64,000 nucleotides of DNA, from contig JAGVGF010000006.1 of NCBI GenBank assembly GCA_020057295.1, positions 179,752 to 243,751 of the forward strand, read 5' to 3'. Position numbers and translations under genes: made by a program. The notes beneath the pieces are model-generated. The model saw only the letters and a program-made list of their open reading frames with translations. It was not told where the DNA came from and ran no database searches. Source of the DNA: an archaeon (lineage in GTDB: Archaea; Nanobdellota; Nanobdellia; Woesearchaeales; UBA9642). Shown here piece after piece: positions 17,386-61,226 of the stretch (its first letter is position 1; each line of letters begins with the position of its first letter).

Positions 17386-17484
17386 ATATTTCATTATAAT
17401 AAACCAATATCAATTTGTGCTTACAAAACCAAAACATATTTAAATACTATTGGTGGGTATTAGTGTTAAAAAGGTGGGTGTTTA

Positions 17485-34398: not shown

Positions 34399-34411
34399 GA
34401 GTACAACTCAT

Positions 34412-34924: not shown

Positions 34925-34925
34925 G

Positions 34926-35963: not shown

Positions 35964-36011
35964 AGATATAATAAAGATAAAACAAAATCTGAAAAGTAAT
36001 CTGGAAAAAAT

Positions 36012-36509: not shown

Positions 36510-36510
36510 A

Positions 36511-37029
36511 ATGAACATCAGACACAATAAAAAGATTAAGGGACAAATAGAAATATTTGGCTTAGCGGTGATTGTTATACTTATATCAATAGGATTTTTT
36601 ATATTTGTATCGCTTAAAGCGCAACATCCAACAGAAAATCCTCAAAAAGAGTATACTAATGACAAGCTTGCTAACGATTTTGTATTATCAATATTAGATG
36701 TTAATGTAAAAGATTGTGATACCTTTACTCTTAAAGATTTAATCGTAGATTGCGGCAGAGATAGAAAGATAGATTGTGGAGGAACATCTTCATGTTTCGC
36801 TGCTAATAAAACAATTACAGACTTGCTTAATGGAACTTTTATGGTCATGAATACTAAATTTAGATTCTATTCTGAAAATCTTAAAGATAACGCTGGTAGA
36901 GAAATCATTAATATAACACATCTTAATTGTACATCTAATATGCGTCAAGGACAAAGGGGTACAGCAATAATATCTTTATACCCTTGGCCCAACAATGTTT
37001 ATTTAAATATGAATATCTGCTATCAATAG
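36511..37029 (+). CDS. Prepilin-like protein (class III signal peptide)
   Basis: KKIKG|QIEIFGLAVIVILISIGFF. Confidence 0.85.
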   Translation: MNIRHNKKIKGQIEIFGLAVIVILISIGFFIFVSLKAQHPTENPQKEYTNDKLANDFVLSILDVNVKDCDTFTLKDLIVDCGRDRKIDCGGTSSCFAANKTITDLLNGTFMVMNTKFRFYSENLKDNAGREIINITHLNCTSNMRQGQRGTAIISLYPWPNNVYLNMNICYQ

Positions 37030-37065
37030 AAAGCTTTATAATATATTATACCAATATTATGCTCT

Positions 37066-37194
37066 ATGGAAGGCGATGATGATGGTGGAGTGAGTTGGAA
37101 TAAGATTGTTACATTAGTTTTTGTTATTAGTGCAATGATTATACTTATGATTTTGGTTACGATAATATTTATAATGCCTATATTGAGGGAATAA
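37066..37194 (+). CDS. 42-aa single-TM microprotein (absent from ORF track)
   Basis: MEGDDDGGVSWNKIVTLVFVISAMIILMILVTIIFIMPILRE; TATA-like TTTATAAT 23 nt upstream; stop 1 nt before the next ATG. Confidence 0.7.
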   Translation: MEGDDDGGVSWNKIVTLVFVISAMIILMILVTIIFIMPILRE

Positions 37195-37195
37195 A

Positions 37196-37777
37196 ATGAT
37201 GAATCTACCAGATAAGGATCCAAAAAGCCAAAGATTAGCATTATTACTAAAGATAATGGTATTCGTACTATTACTTATAGGAGTATTACTGCTTACAGGA
37301 TATTTGAAGAAGATAATGTTATTTGTCAATCCAGACATTGAAAACTGTAAAGGCGGTAGTTGTAGAGATTCATGTATTAAGGATCAAGAAATAATGAATA
37401 ATAATGCTGCATGCAGCGATACAAGCAAAGTCTGCTGTGTAATTAATGATAGAACTCCGAGTGCTGAATGTGTAGGATACACTAAAGGGTATGTCTGCGG
37501 TAGACTGATGATATGTGATGCTGACTTAGTTTGTGTGAGTAGATGTGATTATTGTGCACAAAATCCTGATGATAAAGCATGTGTTATAGATGCAGAAGTA
37601 GTAACCATCGGTGCTAGCGTAACTAAATTTGATGATAAATTCACGTGTGGTTGTACAGAAATGGACTGTAACAGTTTTGATAATAGTAAACTTGGAACAT
37701 GTGTTAAAGGATTCTGTCCTTCAGATGTGCCTGTAGCAACTAACTATATGTGTTGCGTAAATCCTTATAAGAAATAA
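37196..37777 (+). CDS. Membrane-anchored Cys-rich protein with defensin-like motif; paralog of 40987-41604
   Basis: N-terminal TM; C-x4-C-x3-C-x12-C-x6-CC; C(D/E)YCAQNP and FxCGC shared with 40987. Confidence 0.82.
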   Translation: MMNLPDKDPKSQRLALLLKIMVFVLLLIGVLLLTGYLKKIMLFVNPDIENCKGGSCRDSCIKDQEIMNNNAACSDTSKVCCVINDRTPSAECVGYTKGYVCGRLMICDADLVCVSRCDYCAQNPDDKACVIDAEVVTIGASVTKFDDKFTCGCTEMDCNSFDNSKLGTCVKGFCPSDVPVATNYMCCVNPYKK

Positions 37778-37800
37778 AAATATCAGAATAAAATAAAAAT

Positions 37801-38619
37801 ATGTTAAAAAAAAATACTCGTGGAATGTTTAGTCAACTATTAGTTATTGTATTGATATTAAGTGCAGCTATACTTATAATGTTAGTAGTTATGAAATTTT
37901 TATATTCTAATAACGCCAAAGGTGCTATTGATACATGCAGATTTAGTGTAGTTGCACAAAGCGCTACAGCACTTAAAGTAGATTCAAGCGGATTGACAAG
38001 TCCTATAGCAATTAATTGTGAGAAACGATACGTTAATTTATTCAATAATAAGGTGGAAATAGGAAATAATCCTGAAGATACAGATACTGCTCAAATAGTA
38101 TATAATAATAAGCCCGTAAAGAAATTTTTAGAATTAAACGACTTTATTGTTAATCAAATTGTCGCTGAAGAAATGAGAATATGCTGGTATCAATTTGGCC
38201 AAGGAAGAGTTAAAGTCTTTGCAAATGATAAAAACGTACTTGAAAATAGCAATGTTTGTTTCATATGTTCTGAGATAAGTTTTAAAGATAATATGGGTAA
38301 ATCAGAATTTGTAGGATTAGCAGATTATCTTAATCAAACATATATTGCTAATGAGAAAATGACTTATTACCAATACTTAAATGATGCTTCAATGTCTGCC
38401 GAAACTTTTGAACAGTATAATAAAGATGCAAAAAGTTCTGGAAAGACAAATATTTATGATATTAAATTATATAAGGATAAAACTTATTATATTATCTTTA
38501 AGAAAGGAGACTGGACCTTTAGGAGTAGTTATAGATTTTATCCTATAATTATTTCTTCAGATGAAATTAATGGTTATGATGCATATGATCACTCTTTATG
38601 CGATATGCAGGCAACATGA
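37801..38619 (+). CDS. Prepilin-like protein; paralog of 38616-39530
   Basis: NTRG|MFSQLLVIVLIL; CRxS, IVAEEMRICWYQFGQG, CFIC. Confidence 0.85.
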   Translation: MLKKNTRGMFSQLLVIVLILSAAILIMLVVMKFLYSNNAKGAIDTCRFSVVAQSATALKVDSSGLTSPIAINCEKRYVNLFNNKVEIGNNPEDTDTAQIVYNNKPVKKFLELNDFIVNQIVAEEMRICWYQFGQGRVKVFANDKNVLENSNVCFICSEISFKDNMGKSEFVGLADYLNQTYIANEKMTYYQYLNDASMSAETFEQYNKDAKSSGKTNIYDIKLYKDKTYYIIFKKGDWTFRSSYRFYPIIISSDEINGYDAYDHSLCDMQAT

Positions 38620-39530
38620 AATCTAAAGGCATAGCATTTAATAATTTATTATTGATACTTTTAGCTATGGCTGCTCTAATATTATTTAGTCTGTTCTTAT
38701 ACAATAAATATGCTGATACAAGAGATATGCTTGCTGTACAGAATTGTAGAAATAGTATTGCAGCACATTCAGTAGTTGCTAAGGGAACATTTAGTCAGAT
38801 TTTTACAGATGTAAAATGTCCTACAAGAGATATAACTTTAGGCAAAAGTCAATTAAAAGATTCTAAAAGAATTATTGCTGAAGATATGCATCGATGCTGG
38901 TATGAGTGGGGTCAGGGCAAAGAACAATTGTTCCAAGGTGATGGAATGTTTTGTCACATCTGTGCCACATACACTTTTGATGAAAAAGGACAAAAAATTG
39001 ATGGATTTATACACTATCTTGCTAGTACACCAATGTATGTCAAATATCCTGGTGATACTCTAGGAATAAAATATTTAGATTATATGAATCCATATCATAC
39101 AGAAAATGCTGAACAAATGATTCAGAAAAGCGATCAGGTTATTACACCGTACGATTATATTAACACTTCAGCACAATACACTACTGTAATAGTCTATGCT
39201 TCAGGAAAAGAACAAATACAGAAATTTCTTGAAGGCGGAACAAGAGCGACTGTCGGCACTATAGGAGGTCTAGCATTAATTGCCGGTTCTGCCGGATCAG
39301 CATATATTGTTGGTAGTCTATTATTACTTAGCAATCCTGGAGGATGGGTAGTATTAGGAACAGTCGCATTATTAACTCTAGGCTATGAAGCAGTAGGCCT
39401 AGCGACTAATGTTAAAAATCCTGAATGGGTTTCATTTATGGTTTTTAGACCATACAATGTCGATGAATTATCAAATCTTGGATGTCAAAAGCTTGAAGCT
39501 AACCAAGTATCACACGCACCAAATAAATAA
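38616..39530 (+). CDS. Prepilin-like protein with internal Gly-rich hydrophobic segment
   Basis: MKSKG|IAFNNLLLILL (ATGA overlap with the upstream stop); IAEDMHRCWYEWGQG, CHIC; GTIGGLALIAG...SNPGGWVVLG. Confidence 0.85.
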   Translation: MKSKGIAFNNLLLILLAMAALILFSLFLYNKYADTRDMLAVQNCRNSIAAHSVVAKGTFSQIFTDVKCPTRDITLGKSQLKDSKRIIAEDMHRCWYEWGQGKEQLFQGDGMFCHICATYTFDEKGQKIDGFIHYLASTPMYVKYPGDTLGIKYLDYMNPYHTENAEQMIQKSDQVITPYDYINTSAQYTTVIVYASGKEQIQKFLEGGTRATVGTIGGLALIAGSAGSAYIVGSLLLLSNPGGWVVLGTVALLTLGYEAVGLATNVKNPEWVSFMVFRPYNVDELSNLGCQKLEANQVSHAPNK

Positions 39531-39627
39531 GATATAATAATAACATCGTAAATATCAATGTTATAAATAATAATAAAAATATATAATGGAAATATTTATA
39601 TTCAATAAGTACTAGGAAATGATTAAA

Positions 39628-39774
39628 ATGATAAAGTTTCATAAGAAGGGAGAAGCAGGAGAGGGTGCTGGATTCGGATTAGGAAATTTTGCGCAAATAG
39701 CACTTCTCGTAGGAATATTTTTAATAATATTAATTATATCGATAGTAATATACAATAAGATAAGCACTCCTTAG
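39628..39774 (+). CDS. 48-aa minimal (Flp-sized) prepilin-like protein (absent from ORF track)
   Basis: MIKFHKKG|EAGEGAGFGLGNFAQIALLVGIFLIILIISIVIYNKISTP; TATA-like TTTATATT at 39595-39602. Confidence 0.75.
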   Translation: MIKFHKKGEAGEGAGFGLGNFAQIALLVGIFLIILIISIVIYNKISTP

Positions 39775-39809
39775 ATTTTAATCGAACTATAAATTTTAAT
39801 GTGATTATT

Positions 39810-40391
39810 ATGAACAAAAAAGGTATAACAGCAATACTCCTTGTGGTTATAGGATTACTTATTTTATTACTAATAATGGTTGGATGGGGTAAATCATTAT
39901 ATGAAGGTATTGTGTCTTGGAGTAATACTTATGAGAAGCCTAAGTTAAATTATGATAATGCGTTCTTATTTAATGCACAGTACGTTAGTATTAATGAAAG
40001 TGCAGATTTTAAAGCTAAATGTTCTGGTGGAACAAATAATCAGTATATATGTACAAAACCTGTAAAAGTATTATTTTATGTGAACATAAAAAATATCGGT
40101 TCTAAGATGCGTGTATTATATCCTAACCCCATAATCGATTCCTGTAAAGGAAGTAATTGTCAAGAATATGTAAGAGTTGGTGGAAGCAGGTCTTGTGCTG
40201 TAACTCCAGGAACAGATATACTATGCGAGGCTGGAGAAAATGAGTTTAATACGGCAGGAACATATAGAATTTATCCTGCAGTATTTTGTAAAATTGACGA
40301 TCCAATCAATGGATGTCAAAAGACAGGGATAAGCAGTCCAATATACTCTTATAATAAGGATAGCTGGATAGAAATCACTATTCAGCCTTAA
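39810..40391 (+). CDS. Prepilin-like protein with Ig-like domain
   Basis: MNKKG|ITAILLVVIGLLILLL; VNIKNIG...YRIYP...WIEITI domain related to 41610 and to the C-terminus of 42368. Confidence 0.82.
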   Translation: MNKKGITAILLVVIGLLILLLIMVGWGKSLYEGIVSWSNTYEKPKLNYDNAFLFNAQYVSINESADFKAKCSGGTNNQYICTKPVKVLFYVNIKNIGSKMRVLYPNPIIDSCKGSNCQEYVRVGGSRSCAVTPGTDILCEAGENEFNTAGTYRIYPAVFCKIDDPINGCQKTGISSPIYSYNKDSWIEITIQP

Positions 40392-40476
40392 TATTGAATA
40401 AAATCATCAAAAAATTTATAAAGAACATATAACAAGATAGAGTATAAATGATTATTTTTATCGCGAGGTGCGTCAT

Positions 40477-40716
40477 ATGAAAAAGCAAGGTGTCGAGTTA
40501 AGTATGAATGTTATTATAATTGCAGCTATAGGATTATTAGTTTTAGTCATATTAGCAGTACTAGTTATAAATTCTGGAGGTAGATTCCAGGGCGGTACAC
40601 AATCATGTTCTGTAAAGGGCGGAGTATGTTCAGCTACATGTTCAAATGGCGAGCTTAGCGGCGGAACATGTGAAGGTAGCAACAGATGTTGTAAGATATT
40701 TACACTGAGTCCTTAA
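40477..40716 (+). CDS. Small pilin-like protein with beta-defensin-like domain (candidate major subunit)
   Basis: MKKQG|VELSMNVIIIAAIGLLVLVIL; C-x6-C-x3-C-x9-C-x5-CC; own TTTATAAA (40415-40422), SD gaggtg, downstream T-tract. Confidence 0.85.
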   Translation: MKKQGVELSMNVIIIAAIGLLVLVILAVLVINSGGRFQGGTQSCSVKGGVCSATCSNGELSGGTCEGSNRCCKIFTLSP

Positions 40717-40734
40717 TTTTTATTTTTTCTTTCT
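40717..40734 (+). terminator. Oligo-T archaeal terminator-like tract
   Basis: T-rich run immediately after the stop of 40477-40716. Confidence 0.4.
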
Positions 40735-40759
40735 ATAAAATTTTAAAGGTTTAAAAAAA

Positions 40760-41011
40760 ATGTTTAAGTCCAACGGTAAAGGTGTCGAGCTAGCGTTTAA
40801 CACAATAATTCTTATCGTTATCGGACTACTTGTTCTATTCGTTATAGGATTTTTTATAATGCGTGGAGGAATGACATTCAATTCTGGAACATCATGTGAA
40901 GGCAATGGCGGAACATGTATACCATTTACTAGCACATGTGGTGAAGATAAACAATTAGCAGCTTGGAGTTGCGGAAGTAGTCAAAGATGTTGCGTTACAA
41001 AAACAATATAA
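40760..41011 (+). CDS. Small pilin-like protein with beta-defensin-like domain; paralog of 40477
   Basis: GKG|VELAFNTIILIVIGLLVLFVI; C-x6-C-x6-C-x10-C-x5-CC. Confidence 0.85.
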   Translation: MFKSNGKGVELAFNTIILIVIGLLVLFVIGFFIMRGGMTFNSGTSCEGNGGTCIPFTSTCGEDKQLAAWSCGSSQRCCVTKTI

Positions 41012-41604
41012 AAAAGAAGGGAATGAGTGATATGGTTCTTGGACTAATTATTAGTCTAGCAGCCATAATACTTCTAGTTATTGTTATAACAAATATATCA
41101 AAGAGTGCTAATAAAAATGTACAATGCGGTGGGTTAATTAGCGGAACATGTGAAAAAACATGTTCTACTGGGAAATTACCAACATTAGATATAGGAGATG
41201 CTTGTGCTAACAGAAAAGACGGGTTAACTACTTGCTGTGCTGGTTTAGATGTTTCTAAGAGTACAACCAGTAATGATAATACTGGTAATGAATTATGTCA
41301 AACTAGAGCAGTTGGTGCTGATTGTAGTACACAACAATATTTTTACAAAGTGTGTAATGCTACAAAACAGTGCGTATACAAGTGTGAATATTGTGCACAA
41401 AATCCTGGTGTAAGTGGATGTGCTGGATTTAAAAGTAATAATGATAAGCTTGTAACATTCAATAGTCAATTTAGTTGTGGATGTAGCAAAGATCAATGCA
41501 CAGAGAAATCTAAGACTGGTAAGTGCTTAATTAATACAGTACCTCAAGGATTCTTTTGCTCTCCAAACTTGTATTGCTGCGAGGTTCCAAATCCTTCAGG
41601 ATAA
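40987..41604 (+). CDS. Prepilin-like Cys-rich protein with defensin-like motif
   Basis: KKKG|MSDMVLGLIISLAAIILL; C-x7-C-x3-C-x13-C-x9-CC; CEYCAQNP. Confidence 0.82.
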   Translation: MLRYKNNIKKKGMSDMVLGLIISLAAIILLVIVITNISKSANKNVQCGGLISGTCEKTCSTGKLPTLDIGDACANRKDGLTTCCAGLDVSKSTTSNDNTGNELCQTRAVGADCSTQQYFYKVCNATKQCVYKCEYCAQNPGVSGCAGFKSNNDKLVTFNSQFSCGCSKDQCTEKSKTGKCLINTVPQGFFCSPNLYCCEVPNPSG

Positions 41605-41609
41605 ATTTT

Positions 41610-42362
41610 ATGAAAAAATATAATAATCGTGGAGAAGTGAATTGGGTTTTGGTACTAATAGTTGGTCTTATAGCTGTATTAATAATTGTTTTAATAATTA
41701 GATCATGGGGTAAGAGTGCGGATAATAATTTCAAGACATTATCTAACTGCGGATCATTAACGGGCGGAATGGGATTCTGTAGAGTTGAATGTAAGGAGGG
41801 CGAATTAAAGTATCAAAACTTTGGCGGATGTCCTCCTAAAGATGATTCTGGAGCAACATTCTGCTGTATCAATCCTGATAAGAGTGTAAGTTCTGTTCTA
41901 CCAGAAGAATTTGGAGGCAGTGATACGTATAATTTTAAGATAAAATATATTGGATTCCTATATAATGCAAGTGAAGCTATGCCTACAAATTGTCATTTGA
42001 TTTCTGGAAGTACTGTTAAGATGCAATGCACAAAAGGAATAGGAATAACTTTACCCATACAGATAAATATACAGAATGTTGGTACACAACCGTTAGATGT
42101 ATACGGTCTTCCAATGGTCACAATTAATGATAATTACAATACTATGACTACTCCTGCTAACGGTAATACTTTAACAAAATTAGCAGTAGGAGGGGCTGAA
42201 AGTAGTGTAGCTAAAATTGTTATTGAACCTTCTAAGGCTAACGGGTTTTATAGAATTTATGGATATGCAAAATGTGAAACCCAAGAATGTAAAAATACCA
42301 ATCCTAAAGGAGTATTAAGAAAATATGATGATAATGCATATATCGAAGTCACATTCACATAA
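41610..42362 (+). CDS. Prepilin-like protein with defensin-like motif and Ig-like domain
   Basis: MKKYNNRG|EVNWVLVLIVGLIAV; C-x9-C-x3-C-x12-C-x10-CC; start set to ATG 41610. Confidence 0.82.
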   Translation: MKKYNNRGEVNWVLVLIVGLIAVLIIVLIIRSWGKSADNNFKTLSNCGSLTGGMGFCRVECKEGELKYQNFGGCPPKDDSGATFCCINPDKSVSSVLPEEFGGSDTYNFKIKYIGFLYNASEAMPTNCHLISGSTVKMQCTKGIGITLPIQINIQNVGTQPLDVYGLPMVTINDNYNTMTTPANGNTLTKLAVGGAESSVAKIVIEPSKANGFYRIYGYAKCETQECKNTNPKGVLRKYDDNAYIEVTFT

Positions 42363-42367
42363 ATCTT

Positions 42368-43933
42368 ATGGTTTCATTAAATAATTCTAGGAAAGGGAAC
42401 TTAGTATTACAATTTGTAGTTTTATTGATAATAACTTTAATAATGATTTTTGTGATTTCAGCTTTTGGAGTAAAGATATTTGAAGGATTCTTCCCAAGTA
42501 CTGATTCTTCAACAACTAAAAGTTTCACAGCACTATATACAGCTATGAATACTAAATCGTTAAGCACTAAAAATTATGATTCGGTAAAATTAGGAACATA
42601 TATTGCAAAGGATCACGGAATATATTTCTTTGATAACAGTGCAACAGGATGTATAAGAGGGATAGTTAAAATATCTAGACCTACAGCATGTGATGGAAAA
42701 GCGAGCTGTTTGTGTTTACTTAAAGGACCTATAGAACATAGCGGAACGCCTGCAGATACTGATAAATATGTTAAAGTATGTAAAGATTTTAATCAAACAT
42801 TCTCGATAAATCAAGATACTTTGAGTTTGTACAATTCTGGATGTGGTACATCTACAACTAATCAGTTCTATAATATTATAATTGCGCATACTGGCGAAAA
42901 AACAATGGTTATAATGGAAAGTAATGAGTCCAGTCGTAAATATGACGATGAAATGAAAAAATTAACATGCCCTACGATAGCGGATAGTGTATCGCCTTCG
43001 TATATATGTTCTGGAAAGAAAGATGGAGAAATACTCACAGGTAAAGAAGTGTTTGATGCATGTAGTGAATACAACAAGACATGGAATGTATTTGTTGCAG
43101 AATGTAAATATGATACTAATAAATATCCTAAACGTTGTGAATTAAATTGTGAAAAGTGGAAATTTGATTGTGAAACAATGATACCAAATTCCGACACTGG
43201 ATGTGACGCATATAATCAAGGAGGCATAGTAAGAGTTAATGATCAAGATTATAAATATCTTCTGGAAGGAAATTTAAACACTGATAAAAGTTATGGTGAA
43301 ACAAGTAACTATTTCGCATGTAATTTAGACTTGGAAGCATGTCAAATCAGTAAAAATGGAAATGGTTGTGAGGCAAAAACGGCCGCAGATATACCTTCTG
43401 TAGGAACAGGACAATCGTATATGAAATGTTATGAGAAAGGGCAATCATTTGACGGTAAAGCTGATGCTAGAAAAGCTGTAAATATTCAGAAAATACAATT
43501 ATCTGGAAATTCTATTAAAGACGGTTCTTGTAAAAAAATTAATTCTAGCGAATCTGTAATTATAACAAAGAAAAATTCTGATGTTTTTACAAACTATAAC
43601 GTTTACAAATGTAAGCCTGGATCTGAAGTATCTTTTGAAACAGTCGTAGAAAATAAAGCAACATATCCTATGAAACTCAGAGCTTTTACTAAACTTGTAC
43701 AACTGGATGATAGTGTTCCTGCAGTGAGAATGCCAGCAAGTTCTTTGGGAGAAGTCACAGATGCAGAGATTGGACAAACTACAATATTACCATCAACTAT
43801 TACTCTAACAGCGGATTTAGGATGGTATTATTCCATTACACCTTCAGTAATAATAGATGGAGAAACAACTCCTATAGATTCTTTATCTAGTACACTAGAC
43901 ACTAGATTTTATATAGAGATTAATGACAAGTAG
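42368..43933 (+). CDS. Prepilin-like protein, Cys-rich, with C-terminal Ig-like domain
   Basis: SRKG|NLVLQFVVLLIITLIMIF; CLC motif; ends FYIEIND. Confidence 0.82.
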   Translation: MVSLNNSRKGNLVLQFVVLLIITLIMIFVISAFGVKIFEGFFPSTDSSTTKSFTALYTAMNTKSLSTKNYDSVKLGTYIAKDHGIYFFDNSATGCIRGIVKISRPTACDGKASCLCLLKGPIEHSGTPADTDKYVKVCKDFNQTFSINQDTLSLYNSGCGTSTTNQFYNIIIAHTGEKTMVIMESNESSRKYDDEMKKLTCPTIADSVSPSYICSGKKDGEILTGKEVFDACSEYNKTWNVFVAECKYDTNKYPKRCELNCEKWKFDCETMIPNSDTGCDAYNQGGIVRVNDQDYKYLLEGNLNTDKSYGETSNYFACNLDLEACQISKNGNGCEAKTAADIPSVGTGQSYMKCYEKGQSFDGKADARKAVNIQKIQLSGNSIKDGSCKKINSSESVIITKKNSDVFTNYNVYKCKPGSEVSFETVVENKATYPMKLRAFTKLVQLDDSVPAVRMPASSLGEVTDAEIGQTTILPSTITLTADLGWYYSITPSVIIDGETTPIDSLSSTLDTRFYIEINDK

Positions 43934-43987: not shown

Positions 43988-44902
43988 ATGTTTAGACGTC
44001 TGGGAAAGAAGGGTGATGAGAGTAAATTAATGTTTCTCATGTGGGAAGTTATTGTGTTAGCAATAGTTGTTATTGCATTGATTGTGGCGGTGAGAAGTGT
44101 TGCTAATAATAGTAGTTTCTGGAAGAAGTATTATTCTTATGACCTTGCAATGATTACTGAATTGGAGCATACTAATCAGGGCGATTTTATTATTAATTAC
44201 AAACTTAAAGAATATACAGGCATAGCTAAAAGTTTAGGTTTAGTTAGTGATCAATCATATGATATTTCTTTACTTAAAGGTGTTGTGGAAGTTTATCAAA
44301 GTCCCAAAGATGATGACAAGTTCCCGACTAAATTCTTATACGGCATATCAAAAGATATTAATGTTATTGAAAGCACGATAGTATCTAACTTTTTTACTAT
44401 TTCTAAGATAGGTAATGAATTACGTTTTAAAGAATCTTATGGACGTGATAAGGATGTTTGTCCATCCATATCTACTAGTGCTAACATCAGTGAATTAAAG
44501 TTTACAATATTATCTACAAATCCTAAAGTCGATTCTTACTCTACATATCTTGATGGTTTACTAAAGAATTATGGTGTTGGTAGTAATCATAGTGATGAAT
44601 TACTAATAGTTTTCATATATACTAATACCACAAATACTACCATATACTATTCAGACAAACAAATCTCTAAAGCAAGTAAGCTTGGATGTATATTACGTAA
44701 AAATTTGATTGCGACATATTCTGATAAAGATATAACATTATTAAAATACGACGGATTATTAGATGGAGTGCAAGAATTTTCTACAAACAGACAAACAAAT
44801 AATTATTTTATAATTATAGCATTATCCGATACTGATTTTAGTGTAAGTAATACAGACTTTGATAGCATAGTTAAAGAAACTATAAAAAATTATTATAGTT
44901 AA
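43988..44902 (+). CDS. Prepilin-like protein; C-terminus possibly a degenerate Amidase_3-like fold
   Basis: GKKG|DESKLMFLMWEVIVLAIVV; C-terminal TIYYS...ASKLGCILRKNL...IKNYY pattern. Confidence 0.75.
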   Translation: MFRRLGKKGDESKLMFLMWEVIVLAIVVIALIVAVRSVANNSSFWKKYYSYDLAMITELEHTNQGDFIINYKLKEYTGIAKSLGLVSDQSYDISLLKGVVEVYQSPKDDDKFPTKFLYGISKDINVIESTIVSNFFTISKIGNELRFKESYGRDKDVCPSISTSANISELKFTILSTNPKVDSYSTYLDGLLKNYGVGSNHSDELLIVFIYTNTTNTTIYYSDKQISKASKLGCILRKNLIATYSDKDITLLKYDGLLDGVQEFSTNRQTNNYFIIIALSDTDFSVSNTDFDSIVKETIKNYYS

Positions 44903-44917
44903 AAAAATTAATTAAAA

Positions 44918-45454
44918 ATGATTAAAATAAGAAATAGAAATAACCGTGGACAAGTACAATTCTTTTTAGAGAATGTATTTAGATTAGGATTCTTAATGAT
45001 AGCATTATTAGCTTTTTTTCTATTAGTTAATTTTTATGTTGTTAATAAAATAGATACAACACAATTGGAAGCAGAAACTGTTGCTAATAGAATAATATAT
45101 TCTAATATTATAATGCACAACGATATAAATACTGGAAGAGTATATGTAGGAATAGTCGATAAACAGAAAGTTGACGATTCTAGAATTTTTAATCAAATAA
45201 ATTATTTGAATGAGAGGCATGTAGCTGTAAAGATTAAATTACTAAATAACACTCCAAAAAACGATTTTGTTAAGGAAGCGTACATCAATAAAGCACAGTT
45301 TGAACGTTTAAAGGTGATTATTGATGCAAATCTTGGAGGCAGCGGCAAGGGCGGTGCCACGATGTTTATCAAAAAATATCCTGTTACAATAAAAGATTAT
45401 AATACATATTCATACGGGACACTTGTTTTGGAGATAATAGTTCCAAACAGTTAA
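44918..45454 (+). CDS. Prepilin-like protein
   Basis: NNRG|QVQFFLENVFRLGFLMIALLAFFLLV. Confidence 0.82.
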   Translation: MIKIRNRNNRGQVQFFLENVFRLGFLMIALLAFFLLVNFYVVNKIDTTQLEAETVANRIIYSNIIMHNDINTGRVYVGIVDKQKVDDSRIFNQINYLNERHVAVKIKLLNNTPKNDFVKEAYINKAQFERLKVIIDANLGGSGKGGATMFIKKYPVTIKDYNTYSYGTLVLEIIVPNS

Positions 45455-45501
45455 AATTATGATGAAACAAGGATTTAGAAAATAGTTATTAAACAAATAA
45501 A

Positions 45502-46044
45502 ATGCGCAAAAAAAATAAATTATTAAAAAATAAGAAAGGTCAAGAAATGCTGATAGATTTCTGGACAATAATAATATTTACAGGAATAGTTATAATATTC
45601 TTGGTATTATTCTACATATCTAAAGGAGATGTTGGAAATACTGCTAAAGATGAGTTTAAATCTAAAGATGTAAATATAATATTAACATCATTTTTGCGCT
45701 CGCCAGCATATTTCGATTATAGTAAGACCGCTGCCGAAGTAATTTCAGAAGATAGTTATAGTAAAGATTTTACACGCACACAATCAATAGTACAAAAATT
45801 ATTCGTCGGGGTAGACACATATAATAACAAGAAAGTGAAGGATATAATTTTATGTGTAAAGAAAGATTCAAGTAAATTAGTAGAGTATTCTATAAAATAT
45901 GATAACAATAATTATGTAGTAAGCACCAAAAGTGGTGGAGAATGTGAATCTAGCTTACAATATACTTATGCTGAAGAAAACATTCCTAGACATGATACTA
46001 ATTCATTATATATTAAATTAGGAGTATTGACAGTTGACAAATAA
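45502..46044 (+). CDS. Prepilin-like protein
   Basis: NKKG|QEMLIDFWTIIIFTGIVIIFLVLF. Confidence 0.82.
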   Translation: MRKKNKLLKNKKGQEMLIDFWTIIIFTGIVIIFLVLFYISKGDVGNTAKDEFKSKDVNIILTSFLRSPAYFDYSKTAAEVISEDSYSKDFTRTQSIVQKLFVGVDTYNNKKVKDIILCVKKDSSKLVEYSIKYDNNNYVVSTKSGGECESSLQYTYAEENIPRHDTNSLYIKLGVLTVDK

Positions 46045-46051
46045 TTCAAAA

Positions 46052-49000
46052 ATGTTTAATAACAAGAGAGGACAATTGTTTGTGGTAGTTGTAGCTATAG
46101 CTGTAACTCTTGCTATAGCATCATCATATTTCATACTACAATATGTAGTGTATGCACATATTTCTGAAGACGTAACCCTAGGAACATATCAATCAGGAAT
46201 GGTTGATACATTAAATGATGCTGATAAAGTATTAGTATATAATGACTTATTGGCTAAATATTCATCATATGATGCATTACGCAAATTCATGGATAATGGA
46301 GGAGTATACAATAAAATAGTAAATGATGATTCTGGATCAGATACGACTGTAACATGTGGACGTTATATCTATAATTTATGGAATGATGCTAATAAGAATT
46401 GTTATCCTGAATATACTAAAACTTATCAAAAATATTTAGATGATAGCTTGAGAAGTAGAGTTTCTAATGTAAATAGTATTCCTAAGTACTATCCTTTTAC
46501 AATATTCAAGGCTTTAGATTATAATTATGAATATTACTCAAATAATAAATCCATATTCGCTGTTGCTAATGATCCATTAACGCTTTACGTTTTCAAAAAT
46601 ACAGCAACTAAGAACAATATAGGATTGCAATCTTATGTTGCTTTAAAAAGTGCTGCATCATTAAAAGATGGAGATATCACAGGAGTACCTTTTGACAGCG
46701 CTGTTCCAAGCAATTATCTTGCTGCTAATAATCGTAAAATAGATTCTATTGTTATACATTATACTGCTGGTGAAAGCATTAGCAGTGCAATGAGTAGGTT
46801 TAAACAAGAAAATCAAGCTAGTGCACATTATATTATCGGCGGAGCTAAAGATAATTATGCTGTTGAACAAGTAGTTTTAGACAAGGACGTTGCATATCAT
46901 GCAGGATGTATTAATAGTCAAATTACAAATATATGTGCATACAAAGATCCTGTGAATTCCAAAGGAGCATTCTGTAAGGATACTACATATGGTAACATTA
47001 ATTCTAGATCTATAGGTATAGAAATTGTTAATTTAGGATTTGATTGCGGTGCAACAGGTAAAGAGTATTGTAGAGCCGATTCTTTACAAACTAACATTAA
47101 TGGTTTAAAGTATTGGCAAAAATATCCTGATCAACAAATGGATAAAATCGTAGCGCTTTCGGCAATACTTGTTAAAAAGTATGGTGTTAGTAAAGATAAT
47201 ATTATCGGGCATGATCAAATAACTGCATGTAAAAGTGATCCTGGGCCAGCATTTGACTGGACTAATTTTAAAAGTAAACTTGATGAAGCATTAAAGCTTG
47301 ATATCAATCAATTAGAAACAGTGGTGGTTAGCGGTAATACTTTCAATGGATGTCCTAAAACGTCTAATACTGATTGGAAAATTGGTAATTTAATGGTTTC
47401 TAAAGACAGTTTAAATGCCGATGATACTTTAACAGTCACTTTGACAATAATCAACACTGGAGATAACTGTGTTAATGTTCAACCTAAAATATATTTTACT
47501 TCACGACAGACAACGCTTCTTAATGGCCAACCGTTTACTCCTAATTTTCCATCATCAGCCATATTCAAGAAGAGCGATGCTAAACCTTATATTAATATTG
47601 AATTAAAATGTAAATTTACTACAGATGTTAATATTGCTAATAGTGAGCAAGCTAATGGTAACTGTGTATTGTTAGCACCTCCTGCAAATGCTAATGTTCC
47701 CTTTTCTTATACAGTTTATGCAAAAGCTTCTGAAGAAAACGGTCTTAATGAAAAAACTGGATTGAATATGGAAAAACCTTTAACTGTTTATAAGCCTAAA
47801 GGGACAACTTCTGGTAGCGGTAATGGTCAAGGAATAACAGTTTCTAATGATTTATCTCCTACTGAAAAAAATCGTGTTGATCAAACTAGACAAAATCTTG
47901 AGAAATTAAATATTATAGGATATATTGGAGAAGTTGCTGATAAATATCAGATACCTAAAGAATTATTAATGGGAAAAATAACTCAAGAATCAAGTGGTAT
48001 TAATTATAAAATAAAAATTGATTCTGATCCAAAAAAATCTAATTATGCTGTTGGTATTTCACAAATTGAAGGATGGCAACATTATAATTTAATTAAAGAC
48101 ACATGTGGCGCAGAATATGTTACTGAATGTGCAGCATGTACGAGTTGTGACCTTAACGGCAAAGGAACTACGTGTAGAAATGATTTGAAAAATTGTTGTA
48201 AATTTGAAAAGTTTGGTAACGATCCTAAATGTCAAATTGATGTTGGTGCAAGATTATTAAAACAGGAATATGATAGATATGTCTATAATTATGAAGCATA
48301 TAAGAATAATGTAATGAATAGTTGTAAGGATCCTATATATCAACAAAAATATTTAGCTTATACTGGATGGGAACGTGCATTAAGAGCATATAATGGTTTT
48401 GGATGTGACCCTAAAGCAAGAAATGATCTTTATGTGGATTTAGTTTCGAAATGGGCTAGCGGTTGGGGATATACTGGAACATATCAAAATATTGTAAAAG
48501 CAGAAGTAGAAACTGGCATACTTGGAACATATGATATTAAACCTTCATATACGACAAGTGTCGGATTTGATTTTAAGATACTAGATAAATTAACAGAATT
48601 TGCTCAAAAAACAACTAAGGAGTGTGGTGGTGCTGATTCTAAGGATTTATGTGTACAAGATAATATTCAATTATTTAACACAGAAAATATACCTATTTTT
48701 GCTAAAAATAATGAACATATTAATCTAACAACTAATTGTGAAGATGATTATATCACCAAAATACTTATGGGGACAGTCAGAGAAATTGATGATTGCGTGA
48801 ACAGTAATGAAACCGAATGTCAATGTGTAATTAATTCTCCAGAAGATATTAACATAAATCTTAGAGGAAGTGTTGAAGGAACAACTTTAACGTATAATGG
48901 CAATGATAAACAGCGGAATGTATATAGTGATAGAATAATTTATTCTAATGGTGGATTGATTAATAAAACTGTTTCATTAAAAGATGTAACAATATCTAAA

Positions 49001-50050
49001 AACCAGACAGGACTTTCTTTTGAAAATAAGTACGGTCGTAAATGTGCTCCTCTAAAGAATAGTTACGATATGTGTTTAAAGACTGATTTTAATGTTCCTG
49101 TTGTTAAGAATGATAAATTAATTTATGAAAATTTAACATTAAAATTTTCCATAAGATTAAGAGACGATGTGCCTCCAGATTCTGTAGTAAATATAGATGC
49201 ATATAGTCAAAATCACACAAATAACTCTATAATATTAACTTGGGATAAGAATCCTGAATTAGATGTTGCCAAATATATAATATATTTAAGTGATGATATG
49301 AACACATTTAATAGACCTACAGACGGATTAAAGAGCGCAATACCATACAGAGTTATACCTGCAGTTCAAGGATTCGATGAATATTATGATATAGATTATC
49401 AAAATCCTGTATGTAAAGTAAATGCGGACAACACAGGAGTTTATTGTGTGTTTAATGTTGCAGCAAGTAAAGCTGTTAATGGTGCTGGAATAAGAATAAC
49501 ATTAGAAGAGAACAAATTATATTACCTCTCTAAATCAAATCAATTCTTGTACATACTTAATGGCAGTGATGCTTATAATAAATTGGCCGATGGTCAAGAT
49601 AAGAATATAGCAATTACAGCTGTTGATGCAGATGGTAATGAAATGAAATTTATTAATATTTCATCAAGCACAATCACAGTTACGGCTGAAGATTTATTAG
49701 AATCAGGATTTACAAATATTACTAGTTACAAATTTGAAAATAACAACAATACTTTAGTACTATCATGGAATCAAATCACAAAGTATATTAATGGTAAACC
49801 ATTAAGTTCAAACACTGCGGTGTATTATAATGTATATATGATTCAATCTCCTATTTGTTCTGATCAAGGAATGAGTATTGCAACCATGGGCTCCAGCCAA
49901 GGCGAGTTTAATAGTAATGCAGATAATGCTATAATTGTCTCAAGTATGAGTATTGGAGATTACTGTGTTGGTGTGACTTCAAAGACTAATAATGGCAGAG
50001 AATTTGATGGAATATACGTTCAAAAAATTACTTTACCAGCACATAGTTAA
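46052..50050 (+). CDS. Prepilin-like multidomain peptidoglycan hydrolase: N-acetylmuramoyl-L-alanine amidase (Amidase_2), SLT lytic transglycosylase and FN3-like domains
   Basis: NKRG|QLFVVVVAIAV; IVIHYT, SAHY, AYHAG, NSRSIGIE, IIGHDQI, KSDPG; QESSG, AVGISQI, ALRAYNG; ILTWDKNPELDVAKYIIY. Confidence 0.92.
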   Translation: MFNNKRGQLFVVVVAIAVTLAIASSYFILQYVVYAHISEDVTLGTYQSGMVDTLNDADKVLVYNDLLAKYSSYDALRKFMDNGGVYNKIVNDDSGSDTTVTCGRYIYNLWNDANKNCYPEYTKTYQKYLDDSLRSRVSNVNSIPKYYPFTIFKALDYNYEYYSNNKSIFAVANDPLTLYVFKNTATKNNIGLQSYVALKSAASLKDGDITGVPFDSAVPSNYLAANNRKIDSIVIHYTAGESISSAMSRFKQENQASAHYIIGGAKDNYAVEQVVLDKDVAYHAGCINSQITNICAYKDPVNSKGAFCKDTTYGNINSRSIGIEIVNLGFDCGATGKEYCRADSLQTNINGLKYWQKYPDQQMDKIVALSAILVKKYGVSKDNIIGHDQITACKSDPGPAFDWTNFKSKLDEALKLDINQLETVVVSGNTFNGCPKTSNTDWKIGNLMVSKDSLNADDTLTVTLTIINTGDNCVNVQPKIYFTSRQTTLLNGQPFTPNFPSSAIFKKSDAKPYINIELKCKFTTDVNIANSEQANGNCVLLAPPANANVPFSYTVYAKASEENGLNEKTGLNMEKPLTVYKPKGTTSGSGNGQGITVSNDLSPTEKNRVDQTRQNLEKLNIIGYIGEVADKYQIPKELLMGKITQESSGINYKIKIDSDPKKSNYAVGISQIEGWQHYNLIKDTCGAEYVTECAACTSCDLNGKGTTCRNDLKNCCKFEKFGNDPKCQIDVGARLLKQEYDRYVYNYEAYKNNVMNSCKDPIYQQKYLAYTGWERALRAYNGFGCDPKARNDLYVDLVSKWASGWGYTGTYQNIVKAEVETGILGTYDIKPSYTTSVGFDFKILDKLTEFAQKTTKECGGADSKDLCVQDNIQLFNTENIPIFAKNNEHINLTTNCEDDYITKILMGTVREIDDCVNSNETECQCVINSPEDININLRGSVEGTTLTYNGNDKQRNVYSDRIIYSNGGLINKTVSLKDVTISKNQTGLSFENKYGRKCAPLKNSYDMCLKTDFNVPVVKNDKLIYENLTLKFSIRLRDDVPPDSVVNIDAYSQNHTNNSIILTWDKNPELDVAKYIIYLSDDMNTFNRPTDGLKSAIPYRVIPAVQGFDEYYDIDYQNPVCKVNADNTGVYCVFNVAASKAVNGAGIRITLEENKLYYLSKSNQFLYILNGSDAYNKLADGQDKNIAITAVDADGNEMKFINISSSTITVTAEDLLESGFTNITSYKFENNNNTLVLSWNQITKYINGKPLSSNTAVYYNVYMIQSPICSDQGMSIATMGSSQGEFNSNADNAIIVSSMSIGDYCVGVTSKTNNGREFDGIYVQKITLPAHS

Positions 50051-57979: not shown

Positions 57980-57980
57980 A

Positions 57981-58751: not shown

Positions 58752-58814
58752 GAAATTAAGACACTAAAACAGTTTAAAAACATTATGATTAAAAGTTCCA
58801 CAAAACACAACATA

Positions 58815-60293: not shown

Positions 60294-60469
60294 ATAGTAA
60301 ATTAGCAGAATATCCTATATAAATTTTACTGAATAACATATTTAATCTAAACAAGATATAAGAAATATTTATAAATAACACGTCTTAGAATTATAACATA
60401 TTATAAGGCATTATAAAGACTATATCTTAAGAATTTTGCTAAAGGTATAAAGTTAATAAACATATTAAA

Positions 60470-61225: not shown

Positions 61226-61226
61226 A

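What the first reader, a model, noticed from the sequence alone, without database searches (positions are those of the whole stretch)
46052..50050. Archaeal prepilin fused to both an amidase and a lytic transglycosylase
Seen: an Amidase_2 region (about 46720-47290) retains the AmpD/AmiD-type Zn ligands (IHYT His, GHD His, KSDPG Asp) and the IGIE Glu. An SLT region (about 47900-48470) retains motif I QES, motif II GISQ and motif III AYNG. Both have Cys-rich inserts matching the host's surface-protein style. Known: these enzymes cut the stem peptide and the glycan strand of bacterial peptidoglycan, which archaea lack. Peptidoglycan hydrolases have been reported in archaea, but I do not know of a described pilin-borne dual enzyme. 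Inference: a pilus-tip drill for bacterial walls, or a tool for scavenging wall fragments.
Basis: partly seen in the sequence, partly recalled or inferred. Interest (0 to 1): 0.9.

Follow-up and report, generated by a model that had tools for sequence, protein, structure and literature searches.

The report
Pilin-like archaeal protein carrying wall-cutting enzymes
A tiny-genome archaeon that makes no bacterial-type cell wall encodes a 1332-residue surface protein whose pilin-style N-terminus is joined to two enzymes that cut bacterial cell walls, probably a contact tool for breaching bacterial neighbours.

Summary
Window 46052-50050 (+) encodes one 1332-aa protein. It has a class III (prepilin-type) N-terminus (KRG|Q plus about 25 hydrophobic residues). 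It has an Amidase_2 domain (Pfam E 8.6e-24) with the His/Glu/His/Asp set intact. It has an SLT lytic-transglycosylase domain that scores just under Pfam's cut-off (20.5 vs 21.3 bits) because of a 43-residue, 10-Cys insert. Orthologues and the invariant Glu646 secure that domain.

The genome is archaeal, 1.2 Mb and rated 100% complete. It has no Mur ligase. It does have a prepilin peptidase and pilus ATPases. Chimerism is excluded: 11 of 12 genus-mates carry a full-length orthologue in the same gene order.

New here:
- The protein belongs to a family that always keeps the pilin-like module and a C-terminal scaffold.
- The wall-peptide enzyme varies between Amidase_2 and M23, and possibly NlpC/P60; YkuD or VanY appears as an extra or alternative domain in some relatives. 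At least two swaps occurred.
- The gene sits last in a run of at least 16 class III genes.

Large extracellular murein transglycosylases of DPANN archaea, and bactericidal archaeal wall hydrolases, are already published. So this is a new variant of a known kind. Mounting on a pilus tip is plausible but unproven.

The parts
46052..50050 (+). Whole gene, 1332 aa plus TAA stop (P0001). The start is taken as the ATG at 46052; an in-frame TTG lies at 46034.
46052..46150 (+). Class III (prepilin-type) signal. Short basic head MFNNKR, putative cleavage between Gly7 and Gln8 (nt 46072|46073), then an uncharged hydrophobic helix to about residue 33.
   Evidence: Motif statistics over 21 family members. 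AF2 predicts a helix at residues 5-33. The same K/R-G/A-Q + hydrophobic pattern occurs in small genes beside the pilus ATPase on contig C5.
46052..46696 (+). N-module (residues 1-215): signal plus a conserved domain with Cys102, Trp110 and Cys117. It is the carrier part of the family and also occurs as a stand-alone 190-aa protein in a related genome.
   Evidence: Invariant columns. Module HMM hits in L107-L113. No Pfam family.
46730..47248 (+). Amidase_2 (N-acetylmuramoyl-L-alanine amidase, AmpD/AmiD type). His236 is at 46757-46759, Glu324 at 47021-47023, His387 at 47210-47212, Asp396 at 47237-47239. Extra Cys-bearing stretches lie at 46907-46987 and 47036-47113.
47369..47794 (+). Beta-sandwich (Ig/FN3-like) spacer, residues 440-581.
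   Evidence: AF2 gives strands with pLDDT about 80-88. Foldseek hits are beta-sandwich domains.
47858..48466 (+). SLT / GH23-type lytic transglycosylase domain, residues about 603-805. Catalytic Glu646 is at 47987-47989, GISQ at 48053-48064, AYNG at 48386-48397.
   Evidence: The AF2 model is all-alpha with pLDDT 83-95.
48104..48232 (+). 43-residue insert with 10 Cys inside the SLT domain (residues 685-727).
   Evidence: Absent from P0002. Shared by 3 of 9 orthologues. pLDDT dips to about 64.
48497..50047 (+). C-terminal scaffold, residues 816-1332: a helical part, then several FN3-like sandwiches. It is conserved across the family and in shorter relatives of other genera.
   Evidence: AF2 mean pLDDT 84.5. 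Foldseek top hits are tandem FN3 arrays. Module HMMs Cmod1/Cmod2.
43988..46044 (+). Three conserved upstream genes with class III-like N-termini: g304 (43988-44902), g178 (44918-45454), g180 (45502-46044). They are candidate partner minor pilins.
   Evidence: Syntenic in genus-mates. Q12 is invariant in 12 of 12 g178 orthologues. Complex prediction gave weak support.
14197..43933 (+). The wider same-strand run of genes. Most begin with a short basic head, K/R-G, and a hydrophobic stretch (at least 13 such genes here, several Cys-rich). It is interrupted by a 5637-aa protein with a Sec-type signal (17485-34398).

Best explanation
The gene encodes a surface-displayed, two-enzyme peptidoglycan hydrolase of a small-genome (DPANN-like) archaeon, built on a pilin-type carrier.

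Shown:
- The N-terminus has every sequence feature of an archaeal class III signal.
- An intact AmpD/AmiD-type amidase would cut the stem peptide off MurNAc.
- An SLT lytic transglycosylase with its catalytic Glu would cut the glycan strand.
- A beta-sandwich spacer and an FN3-rich C-terminal scaffold complete the protein.
- The organism has no Mur ligase, so the substrate is not its own wall.

Inferred:
- The genome's single A24 prepilin peptidase cuts after Gly7.
- The hydrophobic helix then holds the protein in the membrane, or in a type IV filament or pseudopilus made by one of the genome's ATPase/platform sets. It probably sits there together with the three conserved upstream pilin-like proteins, as a tip or minor-pilin complex.
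- On contact with a bacterium, the amidase and the transglycosylase together open a local hole in the sacculus. This allows attachment, access to the bacterial membrane, or lysis.
- The wall-peptide enzyme has been exchanged repeatedly in the family and the protein evolves fast. This fits adaptation to different bacterial wall chemistries.
For: Domains and residues:
- Amidase_2 scores 84.8 bits.
- Its active-site residues are identical to AmpDh2's and invariant in 6/6 amidase-bearing members.
- The SLT is supported by orthologues (44.4 bits in P0002; 13/21 members).
- Glu646 is invariant in 21/21.
- PDB profile hits are lytic transglycosylases only, 10/10. MltC scores 7.8e-6 with the whole-family profile.

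Class III motif:
- K/R at -2, G/S/A at -1 and Gln at +1 are each 21/21.
- The genome holds 1 Peptidase_A24 match, 4 T2SSE matches and 4 T2SSF matches.
- Small K/R-G/A-Q + hydrophobic genes lie next to the C5 ATPase locus.

Peptidoglycan as the target:
- Of 25 family members, 6 carry Amidase_2 and 16 carry M23 at the same place, and 24/25 keep the SLT region.
- Pfam on 21 members found M23 in 12, Amidase_2 in 6, YkuD in 2 and NlpC/P60 in 1.
- A relative in another genus joins the N-module to VanY/Peptidase_M15.

Not self-directed: no Mur_ligase_M match in a genome rated 100% complete.

Not chimeric:
- 11 of 12 genus-mates have a full-length orthologue.
- g178 and g180 lie upstream in 11/11 of those loci, and RPA lies downstream in 10/11.

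Fast evolution: best-segment identity to genus-mates is 27-39% for this protein. It is 63-75% for the RPA next door and 44-52% for g178.

Swapping: on a tree of the C-terminal scaffold (25 rows, 525 columns, quick method) the amidase label needs 4 changes, and starred branches force at least 2.

Binding to neighbours:
- The complex of g178 + g180 + residues 1-215 scored ipSAE 0.59 (median of 3 runs). The best of 3 controls scored 0.00. The verdict was 'weak support'.
- The mark was reached by 58 of 80 solved complexes and 2 of 110 mismatches. At 0.60 or under it was reached by only 7 of those 80 and by both mismatches that passed.
- The runs agree in at least 70% of contacts, and the partner's pLDDT is at least 51.
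- The shared hydrophobic helices may drive this score.
Against: - No pilin family of Pfam or NCBIfam matches the N-module.
- The fold model of the N-module is poor (mean pLDDT 65, with residues 88-123 below 50).
- Foldseek on that model returned only beta-sandwich hits.
- No assembly ATPase, platform or peptidase gene lies in the 64-kb window. The nearest are at C3:43550-46304 and C3:75740, more than 100 kb upstream, and on contig C5.
- Pfam SLT is below its cut-off for this protein itself. The effect of the 10-Cys insert on activity is unknown.
- No cell-wall-binding domain is recognised.
- No expression data exist (one search listed no RNA holder, which is no evidence either way).
- A 1300-residue cargo on a pilin is sterically unusual.
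- The complex test is only weak support, and the calibration does not cover three-chain jobs run with my own alignments.
Confidence: 0.62

Rival explanations
1. It is a plain membrane-anchored ecto-enzyme. The N-terminal hydrophobic stretch acts as an uncleaved signal-anchor (or is cleaved but never enters a filament). The protein then stands on the cell surface and cuts bacterial peptidoglycan on contact, with no pilus involved.
For: No pilus assembly genes lie in the window. No pilin family is hit. The N-module model is poor. The long FN3-rich stalk could by itself hold the enzymes away from the cell.
Against: Gln at +1 and G/S/A at -1 are invariant in 21/21 proteins that are otherwise about 30% identical. 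That is hard to explain for a mere anchor. The gene closes a run of at least 16 genes with the same N-terminal pattern. The genome keeps a prepilin peptidase. There is weak support for contact with the two upstream pilin-like proteins.
Confidence: 0.22
2. It is a feeding tool. The enzymes release muropeptides and amino sugars from dead bacterial walls, and the archaeon imports them as food.
For: DPANN genomes lack many biosynthetic routes. A paper on Pacearchaeota proposes peptidoglycan of dead cells as an amino-acid source (PMC11537232, passages read). ABC transporters lie nearby at 57260-61976.
Against: No AnmK, Peptidase_S66 (LD-carboxypeptidase) or glucosamine-6-P isomerase match was found in a genome rated 100% complete. 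So the usual routes for anhydro-muropeptides are not seen. An enzyme tied to the cell by a hydrophobic helix suits contact better than bulk digestion. These three markers do not exclude unknown routes.
Confidence: 0.1
3. It is an adhesin with dead or vestigial enzyme folds. The amidase and SLT folds serve only to bind peptidoglycan and hold on to a bacterial host.
For: The Cys-rich inserts lie inside both catalytic domains. SLT scores below Pfam's cut-off here. No separate wall-binding domain is present.
Against: All residues that align with the AmpDh2 active site are kept and invariant in 6/6. Glu646 is invariant in 21/21. Family members keep swapping in other catalytic domains with good scores, for example M23 up to 6.9e-26.
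Confidence: 0.05
4. It is an artefact: a bacterial or viral fragment mis-assembled or mis-binned into an archaeal genome.
For: Both enzyme families are bacterial or phage in origin. The one full-length hit in the named genome collection bears the title 'Alphaproteobacteria bacterium'.
Against: The contig carries archaeal SecY with the Sec61 plug, an EMC3/YidC-like gene and RPA. The genome's rRNAs are archaeal. GC is even, 0.28-0.31 from 44 to 52 kb. Synteny with RPA holds in 10 of 11 genus-mate loci. The 'Alphaproteobacteria' locus itself encodes Rad51/RadA (212 bits) and archaeal-type RPA. In the viral collection, only amidase-domain matches appeared among the 80 loci kept, none full-length.
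Confidence: 0.01

Closest known systems
[quoted passage not shown] 2021, PMC8204110; GH23 proteins of Vigneron et al. 2022, PMC9723730). Passages read.
   Same: Small-genome archaea, a big secreted protein with an SLT/GH23 domain, and proposed action on bacterial walls of hosts or prey. My search also found 2000-2500-aa relatives of the SLT region with Sec-type signals. These may be that family.
   Different: The passages I read mention no class III signal, no pilin-gene context, no amidase/M23 partner domain and no domain swapping. I could not test membership of fam00969 because the supplementary tables are closed.
Archaeal modular peptidoglycan hydrolases that kill bacteria (Woldo/Danwoldo of Halogranum; Strock et al. 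2025, PMC12352652). Passages read.
   Same: Archaeal proteins with bacterial-type wall hydrolase domains (M23 and others). They are acquired by transfer, shuffled domain by domain, and common in Nanoarchaeota.
   Different: Those are diffusible Sec/Tat-secreted enzymes, defined by one catalytic plus one wall-binding domain. This protein has no recognised wall-binding domain, so that survey's filter would skip it. It has two catalytic domains and a class III signal, which that survey did not score.
Class III-signal cargo proteins of archaea: the Sulfolobales bindosome and 'SPIII' substrate-binding proteins (PMC13705601). Passages read.
   Same: A pilin-blueprint N-terminus joined to a large functional C-terminal part. 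The cargo genes lie away from the ATPase/platform locus. The proposed display is on a type IV filament base.
   Different: The cargo there is solute-binding proteins for uptake. Here it is wall-cutting enzymes. That paper reports type IV filament systems as scarce in DPANN.
Bacterial modular (bimodular) type IV pilins and tip minor-pilin complexes (recalled: S. sanguinis PilB/PilC, GspK-type large minor pseudopilins). One review appeared in a search listing only (PMC6916266).
   Same: A pilin module fused to a functional module. A small set of adjacent minor-pilin genes.
   Different: Bacterial, with N-methylated Phe/Glu5-type signals. I found no example with peptidoglycan hydrolase cargo: search gave 1 paper, seen as a listing only.
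AmpDh2/AmiD/AmpD amidases and the family 1 lytic transglycosylases MltC, MltE and Slt70.
   Same: Nearest solved relatives by sequence. Active-site residues coincide.
   Different: About 25-30% identity or less, Cys-rich inserts, and fusion in one 1332-aa archaeal surface protein.

Membership tests
Amidase_2 (PF01510; AmpD/AmiD-type N-acetylmuramoyl-L-alanine amidase) | Profile match above the curated cut-off | tested here: met
   84.8 bits against a cut-off of 26, covering profile positions 2-131 of 131.
Amidase_2 (PF01510; AmpD/AmiD-type N-acetylmuramoyl-L-alanine amidase) | Zn ligands His/His/Asp and the catalytic Glu (the roles of these residues are recalled from the AmpD/AmiD literature, not read here) | tested here: met
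   His236, Glu324, His387 and Asp396 align on identical residues of AmpDh2. They are invariant in 6/6 amidase-bearing members.
Amidase_2 (PF01510; AmpD/AmiD-type N-acetylmuramoyl-L-alanine amidase) | Cleaves the MurNAc-L-Ala bond | not testable with these tools
   Needs an enzyme assay.
SLT / GH23 family 1 lytic transglycosylase (PF01464) | Profile match above the curated cut-off | tested here: inconclusive
   This protein scores 13.8 bits whole and 20.5 bits for residues 590-815, against a cut-off of 21.3. Its orthologues pass: P0002 at 44.4 bits, 13/21 members at E <= 0.001, and 5/7 genus-mates.
SLT / GH23 family 1 lytic transglycosylase (PF01464) | Catalytic Glu in the E-S motif, the G-x-x-Q motif and the AYNxG motif (motif names recalled) | tested here: met
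   QES 645-647, GISQ 668-671 and AYNG 779-782 are present. Glu646, Gly668, Gln671, Tyr780 and Asn781 are invariant in 21/21. The E-S motif aligns on the ESS/ESG of MltC and MltE.
SLT / GH23 family 1 lytic transglycosylase (PF01464) | Lysozyme-like all-alpha fold | tested here: inconclusive
   The AF2 model is helical with pLDDT 83-95 over residues 603-805. But the Foldseek ranking was taken over by the FN3 repeats, so no transglycosylase structure appeared in the list.
Archaeal class III signal peptide / type IV pilin-like protein | Short basic head, K/R then G/A/S at -1, followed by about 20 or more hydrophobic residues | tested here: met
   KRG|Q plus 25 uncharged residues. Family statistics are 21/21 at positions -2, -1 and +1.
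Archaeal class III signal peptide / type IV pilin-like protein | Match to a curated pilin or class III family | tested here: not met
   No such Pfam or NCBIfam hit for the protein, its first 60 or 215 residues, or its neighbours.
Archaeal class III signal peptide / type IV pilin-like protein | Prepilin peptidase and assembly ATPase/platform in the genome | tested here: met
   Peptidase_A24 has 1 match, T2SSE 4 and T2SSF 4. None lies in the window.
Archaeal class III signal peptide / type IV pilin-like protein | Pilin fold (N-terminal helix packed on a beta-sheet) and incorporation into a filament | tested here: inconclusive
   A helix at 5-33 is predicted, but the domain model is poor. The complex test with two neighbours gave weak support, 0.59 against 0.00. 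Filament incorporation cannot be tested here.
Modular archaeal PGH as defined by Strock et al. 2025 | At least one catalytic domain plus one recognised cell-wall-binding domain | tested here: not met
   Two catalytic domains are present, but no LysM, SH3b, PG_binding or similar domain was found by Pfam.
fam00969 (Castelle et al. 2021) | Membership in that protein cluster | not testable with these tools

The most novel reading that the evidence does not exclude
A clade of DPANN archaea mounts a cassette-swappable set of peptidoglycan hydrolases on a pilin module. The set is an amidase or M23 endopeptidase plus a lytic transglycosylase, sometimes with a YkuD or VanY domain. The protein assembles with three conserved minor pilin-like proteins at the tip of a type IV filament, giving the archaeon a cross-domain 'drill' for attaching to and breaching bacterial hosts. 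That would be the first molecular mechanism for archaeon-on-bacterium episymbiosis or predation, and the first enzyme-bearing archaeal pilin.
Probability: 0.3. Interest if true: 0.85.

Novelty: new variant of a known kind. Interest (0 to 1): 0.62.

Why it matters
Whether any DPANN archaea live on bacteria rather than on other archaea is an open question. So far it is argued mainly from the presence of murein transglycosylase genes.

This locus sharpens that argument into something testable:
- a defined protein with two intact wall-cutting activities;
- a processing site that the genome's own prepilin peptidase should cut;
- three conserved partner genes;
- a natural series of orthologues in one genus that differ in which wall-peptide bond they attack.

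That series could be used to match archaeal lineages to bacterial wall chemotypes. It also extends the idea of 'functionalised' archaeal type IV filaments from nutrient binding to attack. Finally, it points to a class of archaeal wall hydrolases that surveys based on Sec/Tat signals and wall-binding domains would miss.

Tried and rejected
- Whole-protein word-index search found only one homologue. The exhaustive search with the SLT piece was needed to find the family.
- The search for related loci with the 21-row alignment failed for lack of a conserved stretch. I re-ran it with the 6 amidase-bearing rows. That run used amidase patterns, so it mostly returned bacterial AmpD-like genes at 24-44% identity. 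The donor of the amidase therefore cannot be named: Alphaproteobacteria top the list at 28-33%, and phage amidases in the viral scan are as near at 24-32%.
- The protein Atlas gave no usable hit for the whole protein. For residues 1-215 it gave only leads under 0.9: small hypothetical proteins of Nanobdellota/Woesearchaeota, 0.84-0.88.
- Pfam on the first 60 residues of eight cluster genes gave no pilin family.
- My genome-wide regular-expression scan for class III-like N-termini is crude: 102 of 2125 frames matched, many of them ordinary membrane proteins. I use it only to show where the K/R-G/A-Q genes cluster.
- The look-up of sequencing runs listed one DNA run with a small share (0.14) and no RNA holder. 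I did not lay it and draw nothing from it.
- I first read the Pfam tally as one slot with four alternative domains. One search showed that YkuD is an extra domain between the sandwich and the SLT, in a protein that also has M23. So I dropped that reading.
- Self-wall remodelling is rejected: no Mur ligase.
- Supplements are closed. Castelle 2021 Table S3 and Strock 2025 Table S2 may list this family or its architectures. My statement that the pilin fusion is not in print rests on searches and on passages of PMC8204110, PMC10936187, PMC9723730, PMC11537232, PMC12352652 and PMC13705601 only.

Full report
WHAT IS THERE

Window 46034..50050 (+) is one open frame. From the ATG at 46052 it gives a 1332-aa protein, P0001. 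The parts, in order:
- a class III-like N-terminus, MFNNKRG|QLFVVVVAIAVTLAIASSYFILQYVV;
- a conserved N-module to about residue 215;
- Amidase_2 at residues 227-399;
- a beta-sandwich at residues 440-581;
- an SLT domain at residues 603-805 with a 43-residue, 10-Cys insert (685-727);
- a C-terminal scaffold (816-1332) that starts helical and continues as FN3-like sandwiches.

The protein has 34 Cys and 12 N-x-S/T sequons.

CHECKING THE TWO ENZYMES

The amidase is beyond doubt:
- Pfam gives 84.8 bits (E 8.6e-24) over the full model.
- The nearest solved proteins are AmpDh2, AmiD and AmpD.
- An NCBIfam AmpD model gives a partial match.
- His236, Glu324, His387, Lys394 and Asp396 sit on identical residues of AmpDh2 and are invariant in all 6 amidase-bearing relatives. 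That these are the zinc ligands and the catalytic acid is recalled knowledge of AmpD/AmiD, not read here.

The SLT domain is weaker in this one protein: 13.8 bits on the whole protein, and 20.5 bits on residues 590-815 against a cut-off of 21.3. The cause is the Cys-rich insert after motif II, which P0002 lacks. The case rests on relatives:
- P0002 is 35% identical over 100% of the length and scores 44.4 bits.
- 13 of 21 family members pass E <= 0.001.
- Thr644, Glu646, Gly668, Gln671, Tyr780 and Asn781 are invariant in 21 of 21.
- A profile of nine orthologous SLT regions finds only lytic transglycosylases in the PDB: 10 of 10 hits are MltC, MltE/EmtA or Slt70. The E-S motif lies on theirs.
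- The whole-family profile finds MltC at 7.8e-6.
- The AF2 model of this region is helical with pLDDT 83-95.
- I could not confirm the fold by structure search because the FN3 repeats swamped Foldseek.

WHOSE GENE IS IT

- The window is the last 64 kb of a 244-kb contig. The genome is 1.20 Mb in 6 contigs, rated 100% complete and 0.46% contaminated.
- Its rRNAs match the archaeal SSU and LSU models best.
- The window also encodes SecY with the Sec61 plug, an EMC3/YidC-like protein and an archaeal-type RPA right after the gene.
- GC is even across the region.
- Size and gene content fit DPANN. The Atlas leads for the N-module point to Nanobdellota/Woesearchaeota, but only at scores of 0.84-0.88. 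I could not name the lineage.
- The genome has no Mur_ligase_M match, so it builds neither murein nor pseudomurein by the known ligase route.
- Besides this gene it has one other SLT protein, 342 aa, on contig C5. It has no M23.

THE FAMILY

The exhaustive search with the SLT piece gave 96 proteins at E <= 0.001. Among them is a set of about 1100-1540-aa proteins with the same N-terminus.

N-terminal motif. In 21 aligned members, position -2 is K/R in 21/21, -1 is G (12), S (5) or A (4), +1 is Gln in 21/21, +3 is Phe in 18/21, and a hydrophobic stretch follows.

Enzyme content:
- Pfam on these 21 members found SLT in 13, Peptidase_M23 in 12, Amidase_2 in 6, YkuD in 2 and NlpC/P60 in 1.
- I classified 25 members (the 21 plus 4 genus-mate ORFs) with phmmer, using one example of each domain as query. 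Amidase_2 was in 6, M23 in 16, and neither in 3. The SLT region was recognisable in 24 of 25.
- Of the three with neither, one has an NlpC/P60 match at 22.6 bits (cut-off 23). Two show nothing.
- YkuD is an extra domain between the sandwich and the SLT, in proteins that also have M23.

So the family keeps carrier, spacer, transglycosylase and scaffold, and exchanges the enzyme that attacks the peptide part of the wall.

Swapping. On a tree of the scaffold alone (25 rows, 525 columns, quick IQ-TREE) the amidase label needs 4 changes. Well-supported branches force at least 2. The label is not significantly clustered: 41 of 500 shuffles were as low.

DISTRIBUTION AND SYNTENY

- Among 60 relatives searched, 37 have some match at E <= 1e-10, which is 38 of 61 with the own genome.
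- All 12 genus-mates match. 11 match over the full length. In one (G003) a single 1017-aa frame matches only profile positions 3-374 and 761-1292, so it lacks the sandwich and the SLT. One (G004) has an in-frame TGA.
- In the 11 full-length loci, g178 and g180 lie just upstream in 11/11, and RPA lies downstream in 10/11. The eleventh locus ends at its contig end.
- Best-segment identity to the window is 27-39% for this protein, 30-40% for g180, 44-52% for g178 and 63-75% for RPA. The enzyme-bearing protein is therefore the fastest-evolving of the four.
- Within the genus the slot holds M23 in 7 loci. It holds Amidase_2 in the window and two others (the loci were matched to P ids by length and N-terminus only). 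It holds NlpC/P60-like in one and nothing recognisable in one.

In other genera of the order the modules occur in other combinations:
- a stand-alone 190-aa N-module next to an M23 protein;
- N-module + M23;
- N-module + SLT + scaffold (823 aa);
- N-module + scaffold with no known enzyme (973 and 851 aa);
- N-module + VanY/Peptidase_M15 (364 aa).

A pilin-sized stand-alone form, together with free recombination with wall-active cargo, is what a 'modular pilin' would look like.

IS IT A PILIN

For:
- The cleavage-site pattern above.
- The same pattern in g178 (Gln12 invariant in 12/12) and G-E/Q in g180.
- At least 16 same-strand genes from 14197 to 50050 with such N-termini.
- Small K/R-G/A-Q genes directly beside an ATPase/platform operon on contig C5.
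- One A24 peptidase in the genome.
- A predicted helix at residues 5-33.
- The complex prediction of g178 + g180 + residues 1-215: score 0.59 (runs 0.59, 0.65, 0.54) against 0.00 for the best of three controls. The verdict was 'weak support', with partner pLDDT at least 51 and at least 70% of contacts shared between runs. Per the tool's calibration, such a pass at 0.60 or under is 'more often wrong than right unless the guess was likely beforehand'. The control proteins were unrelated natural proteins chosen by the tool, not matched for a hydrophobic N-helix. Helix bundling may therefore explain the score.

Against:
- No curated pilin family matches.
- The N-module model is poor.
- No assembly genes lie in the window.

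I therefore call the N-terminus a class III signal with good confidence. Filament incorporation remains an inference.

WHAT IT DOES

The substrate cannot be the archaeon's own wall. The repeated choice of murein-specific domains makes bacterial peptidoglycan the target. Across the family and its relatives these are MurNAc-L-Ala amidase, M23, YkuD, VanY and possibly NlpC/P60, always alongside or near an SLT.

An amidase strips peptides from the glycan, and a lytic transglycosylase then cuts the denuded or intact strand. Together they open a hole, not merely nick the wall. Being tied by a hydrophobic helix, the protein must act on contact.

The genome shows no AnmK, Peptidase_S66 or glucosamine-6-P isomerase. 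This argues, weakly, against muropeptide feeding and for breaching or attachment.

Fast divergence and cassette exchange fit tracking of host wall types.

WHAT IS KNOWN

All papers below were read as passages only.
- Castelle et al. [quoted passage not shown]
- Vigneron et al. 2022 call such MAGs 'vampiristic' (PMC9723730).
- Zhang et al. 2024 and Takamiya et al. 2024 repeat the point (PMC10936187 and PMC11537232; author names recalled).
- Strock et al. 2025 show experimentally that archaeal M23 and glucosaminidase proteins kill bacteria, and note that such homologues are most diverse in Nanoarchaeota. But they required a wall-binding domain and scored only Sec/Tat signals (PMC12352652).
- A 2026 survey of archaeal type IV filaments proposes that class III-signal binding proteins functionalise filaments. 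It does not mention hydrolases in the passages found (PMC13705601).

Six searches turned up no description of a class III/pilin-borne peptidoglycan hydrolase in archaea. Supplements that might list the family were closed.

VERDICT

- It is a new variant of a known kind: the DPANN murein hydrolase idea gains a delivery module, a partner operon and a natural cassette series.
- Interest 0.62.

Noticed in passing
window 1891-3690 (-): This 599-aa protein of an archaeal genome carries a Por_Secre_tail domain, the bacterial T9SS C-terminal sorting signal (30.6 bits, cut-off 27). It also has CarboxypepD_reg and PEGA domains. A T9SS sorting tail in an archaeon is odd.
   Followed up: no
window 17485-34398 (+) and 3779-10060 (-): Two giant proteins, 5637 aa and 2093 aa, have Sec-type signals and Cys-rich starts. 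Pfam finds almost nothing in them: a sub-threshold CarboxypepD_reg and a sub-threshold DUF4215. The 5637-aa gene sits inside the run of class III genes.
   Followed up: partly
window 40468-40716 and 40760-41011 (+); also 37196-37777, 40987-41604: These are small class III-like proteins whose mature parts are Cys-rich knots. They have sub-threshold likeness to beta-defensin (19.4 bits, cut-off 21) and carboxypeptidase inhibitor I68 (22.6 bits, cut-off 25). They may be pilin-borne miniproteins.
   Followed up: no
L002 (genome contigs record titled 'Alphaproteobacteria bacterium', 37-kb contig): The locus is archaeal. It encodes Rad51/RadA (212 bits) and archaeal-type RPA, has the same pilin-like gene order as the window, and has GC 0.34-0.37. 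The record's title looks wrong.
   Followed up: partly
G000 contig C5:31487-32014 (-), locus L091: This is a second, stand-alone SLT protein (342-aa frame; Pfam SLT 43.1 and 22.5 bits in two pieces) with a different, non-class III N-terminus.
   Followed up: no
L110:4038-5129 (-) (G013): The family's N-module is fused to a VanY/Peptidase_M15 D-Ala-D-Ala carboxypeptidase domain (28.7 and 28.2 bits) in a 364-aa protein. A separate protein carrying the scaffold follows it.
   Followed up: partly
L104 (G004) and G003:C15:13716-16724: One genus-mate's orthologue has an in-frame TGA. Another lacks the sandwich and SLT parts within a single 1017-aa frame. These may be decay, assembly error or a natural short form.
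   Followed up: no
P0006 (1225 aa) from the representative search: This is another class III-type protein with Amidase_2 at residues 225-364 but the SLT region at the far C-terminus (1010-1177). It is a different order of the same parts.
   Followed up: no
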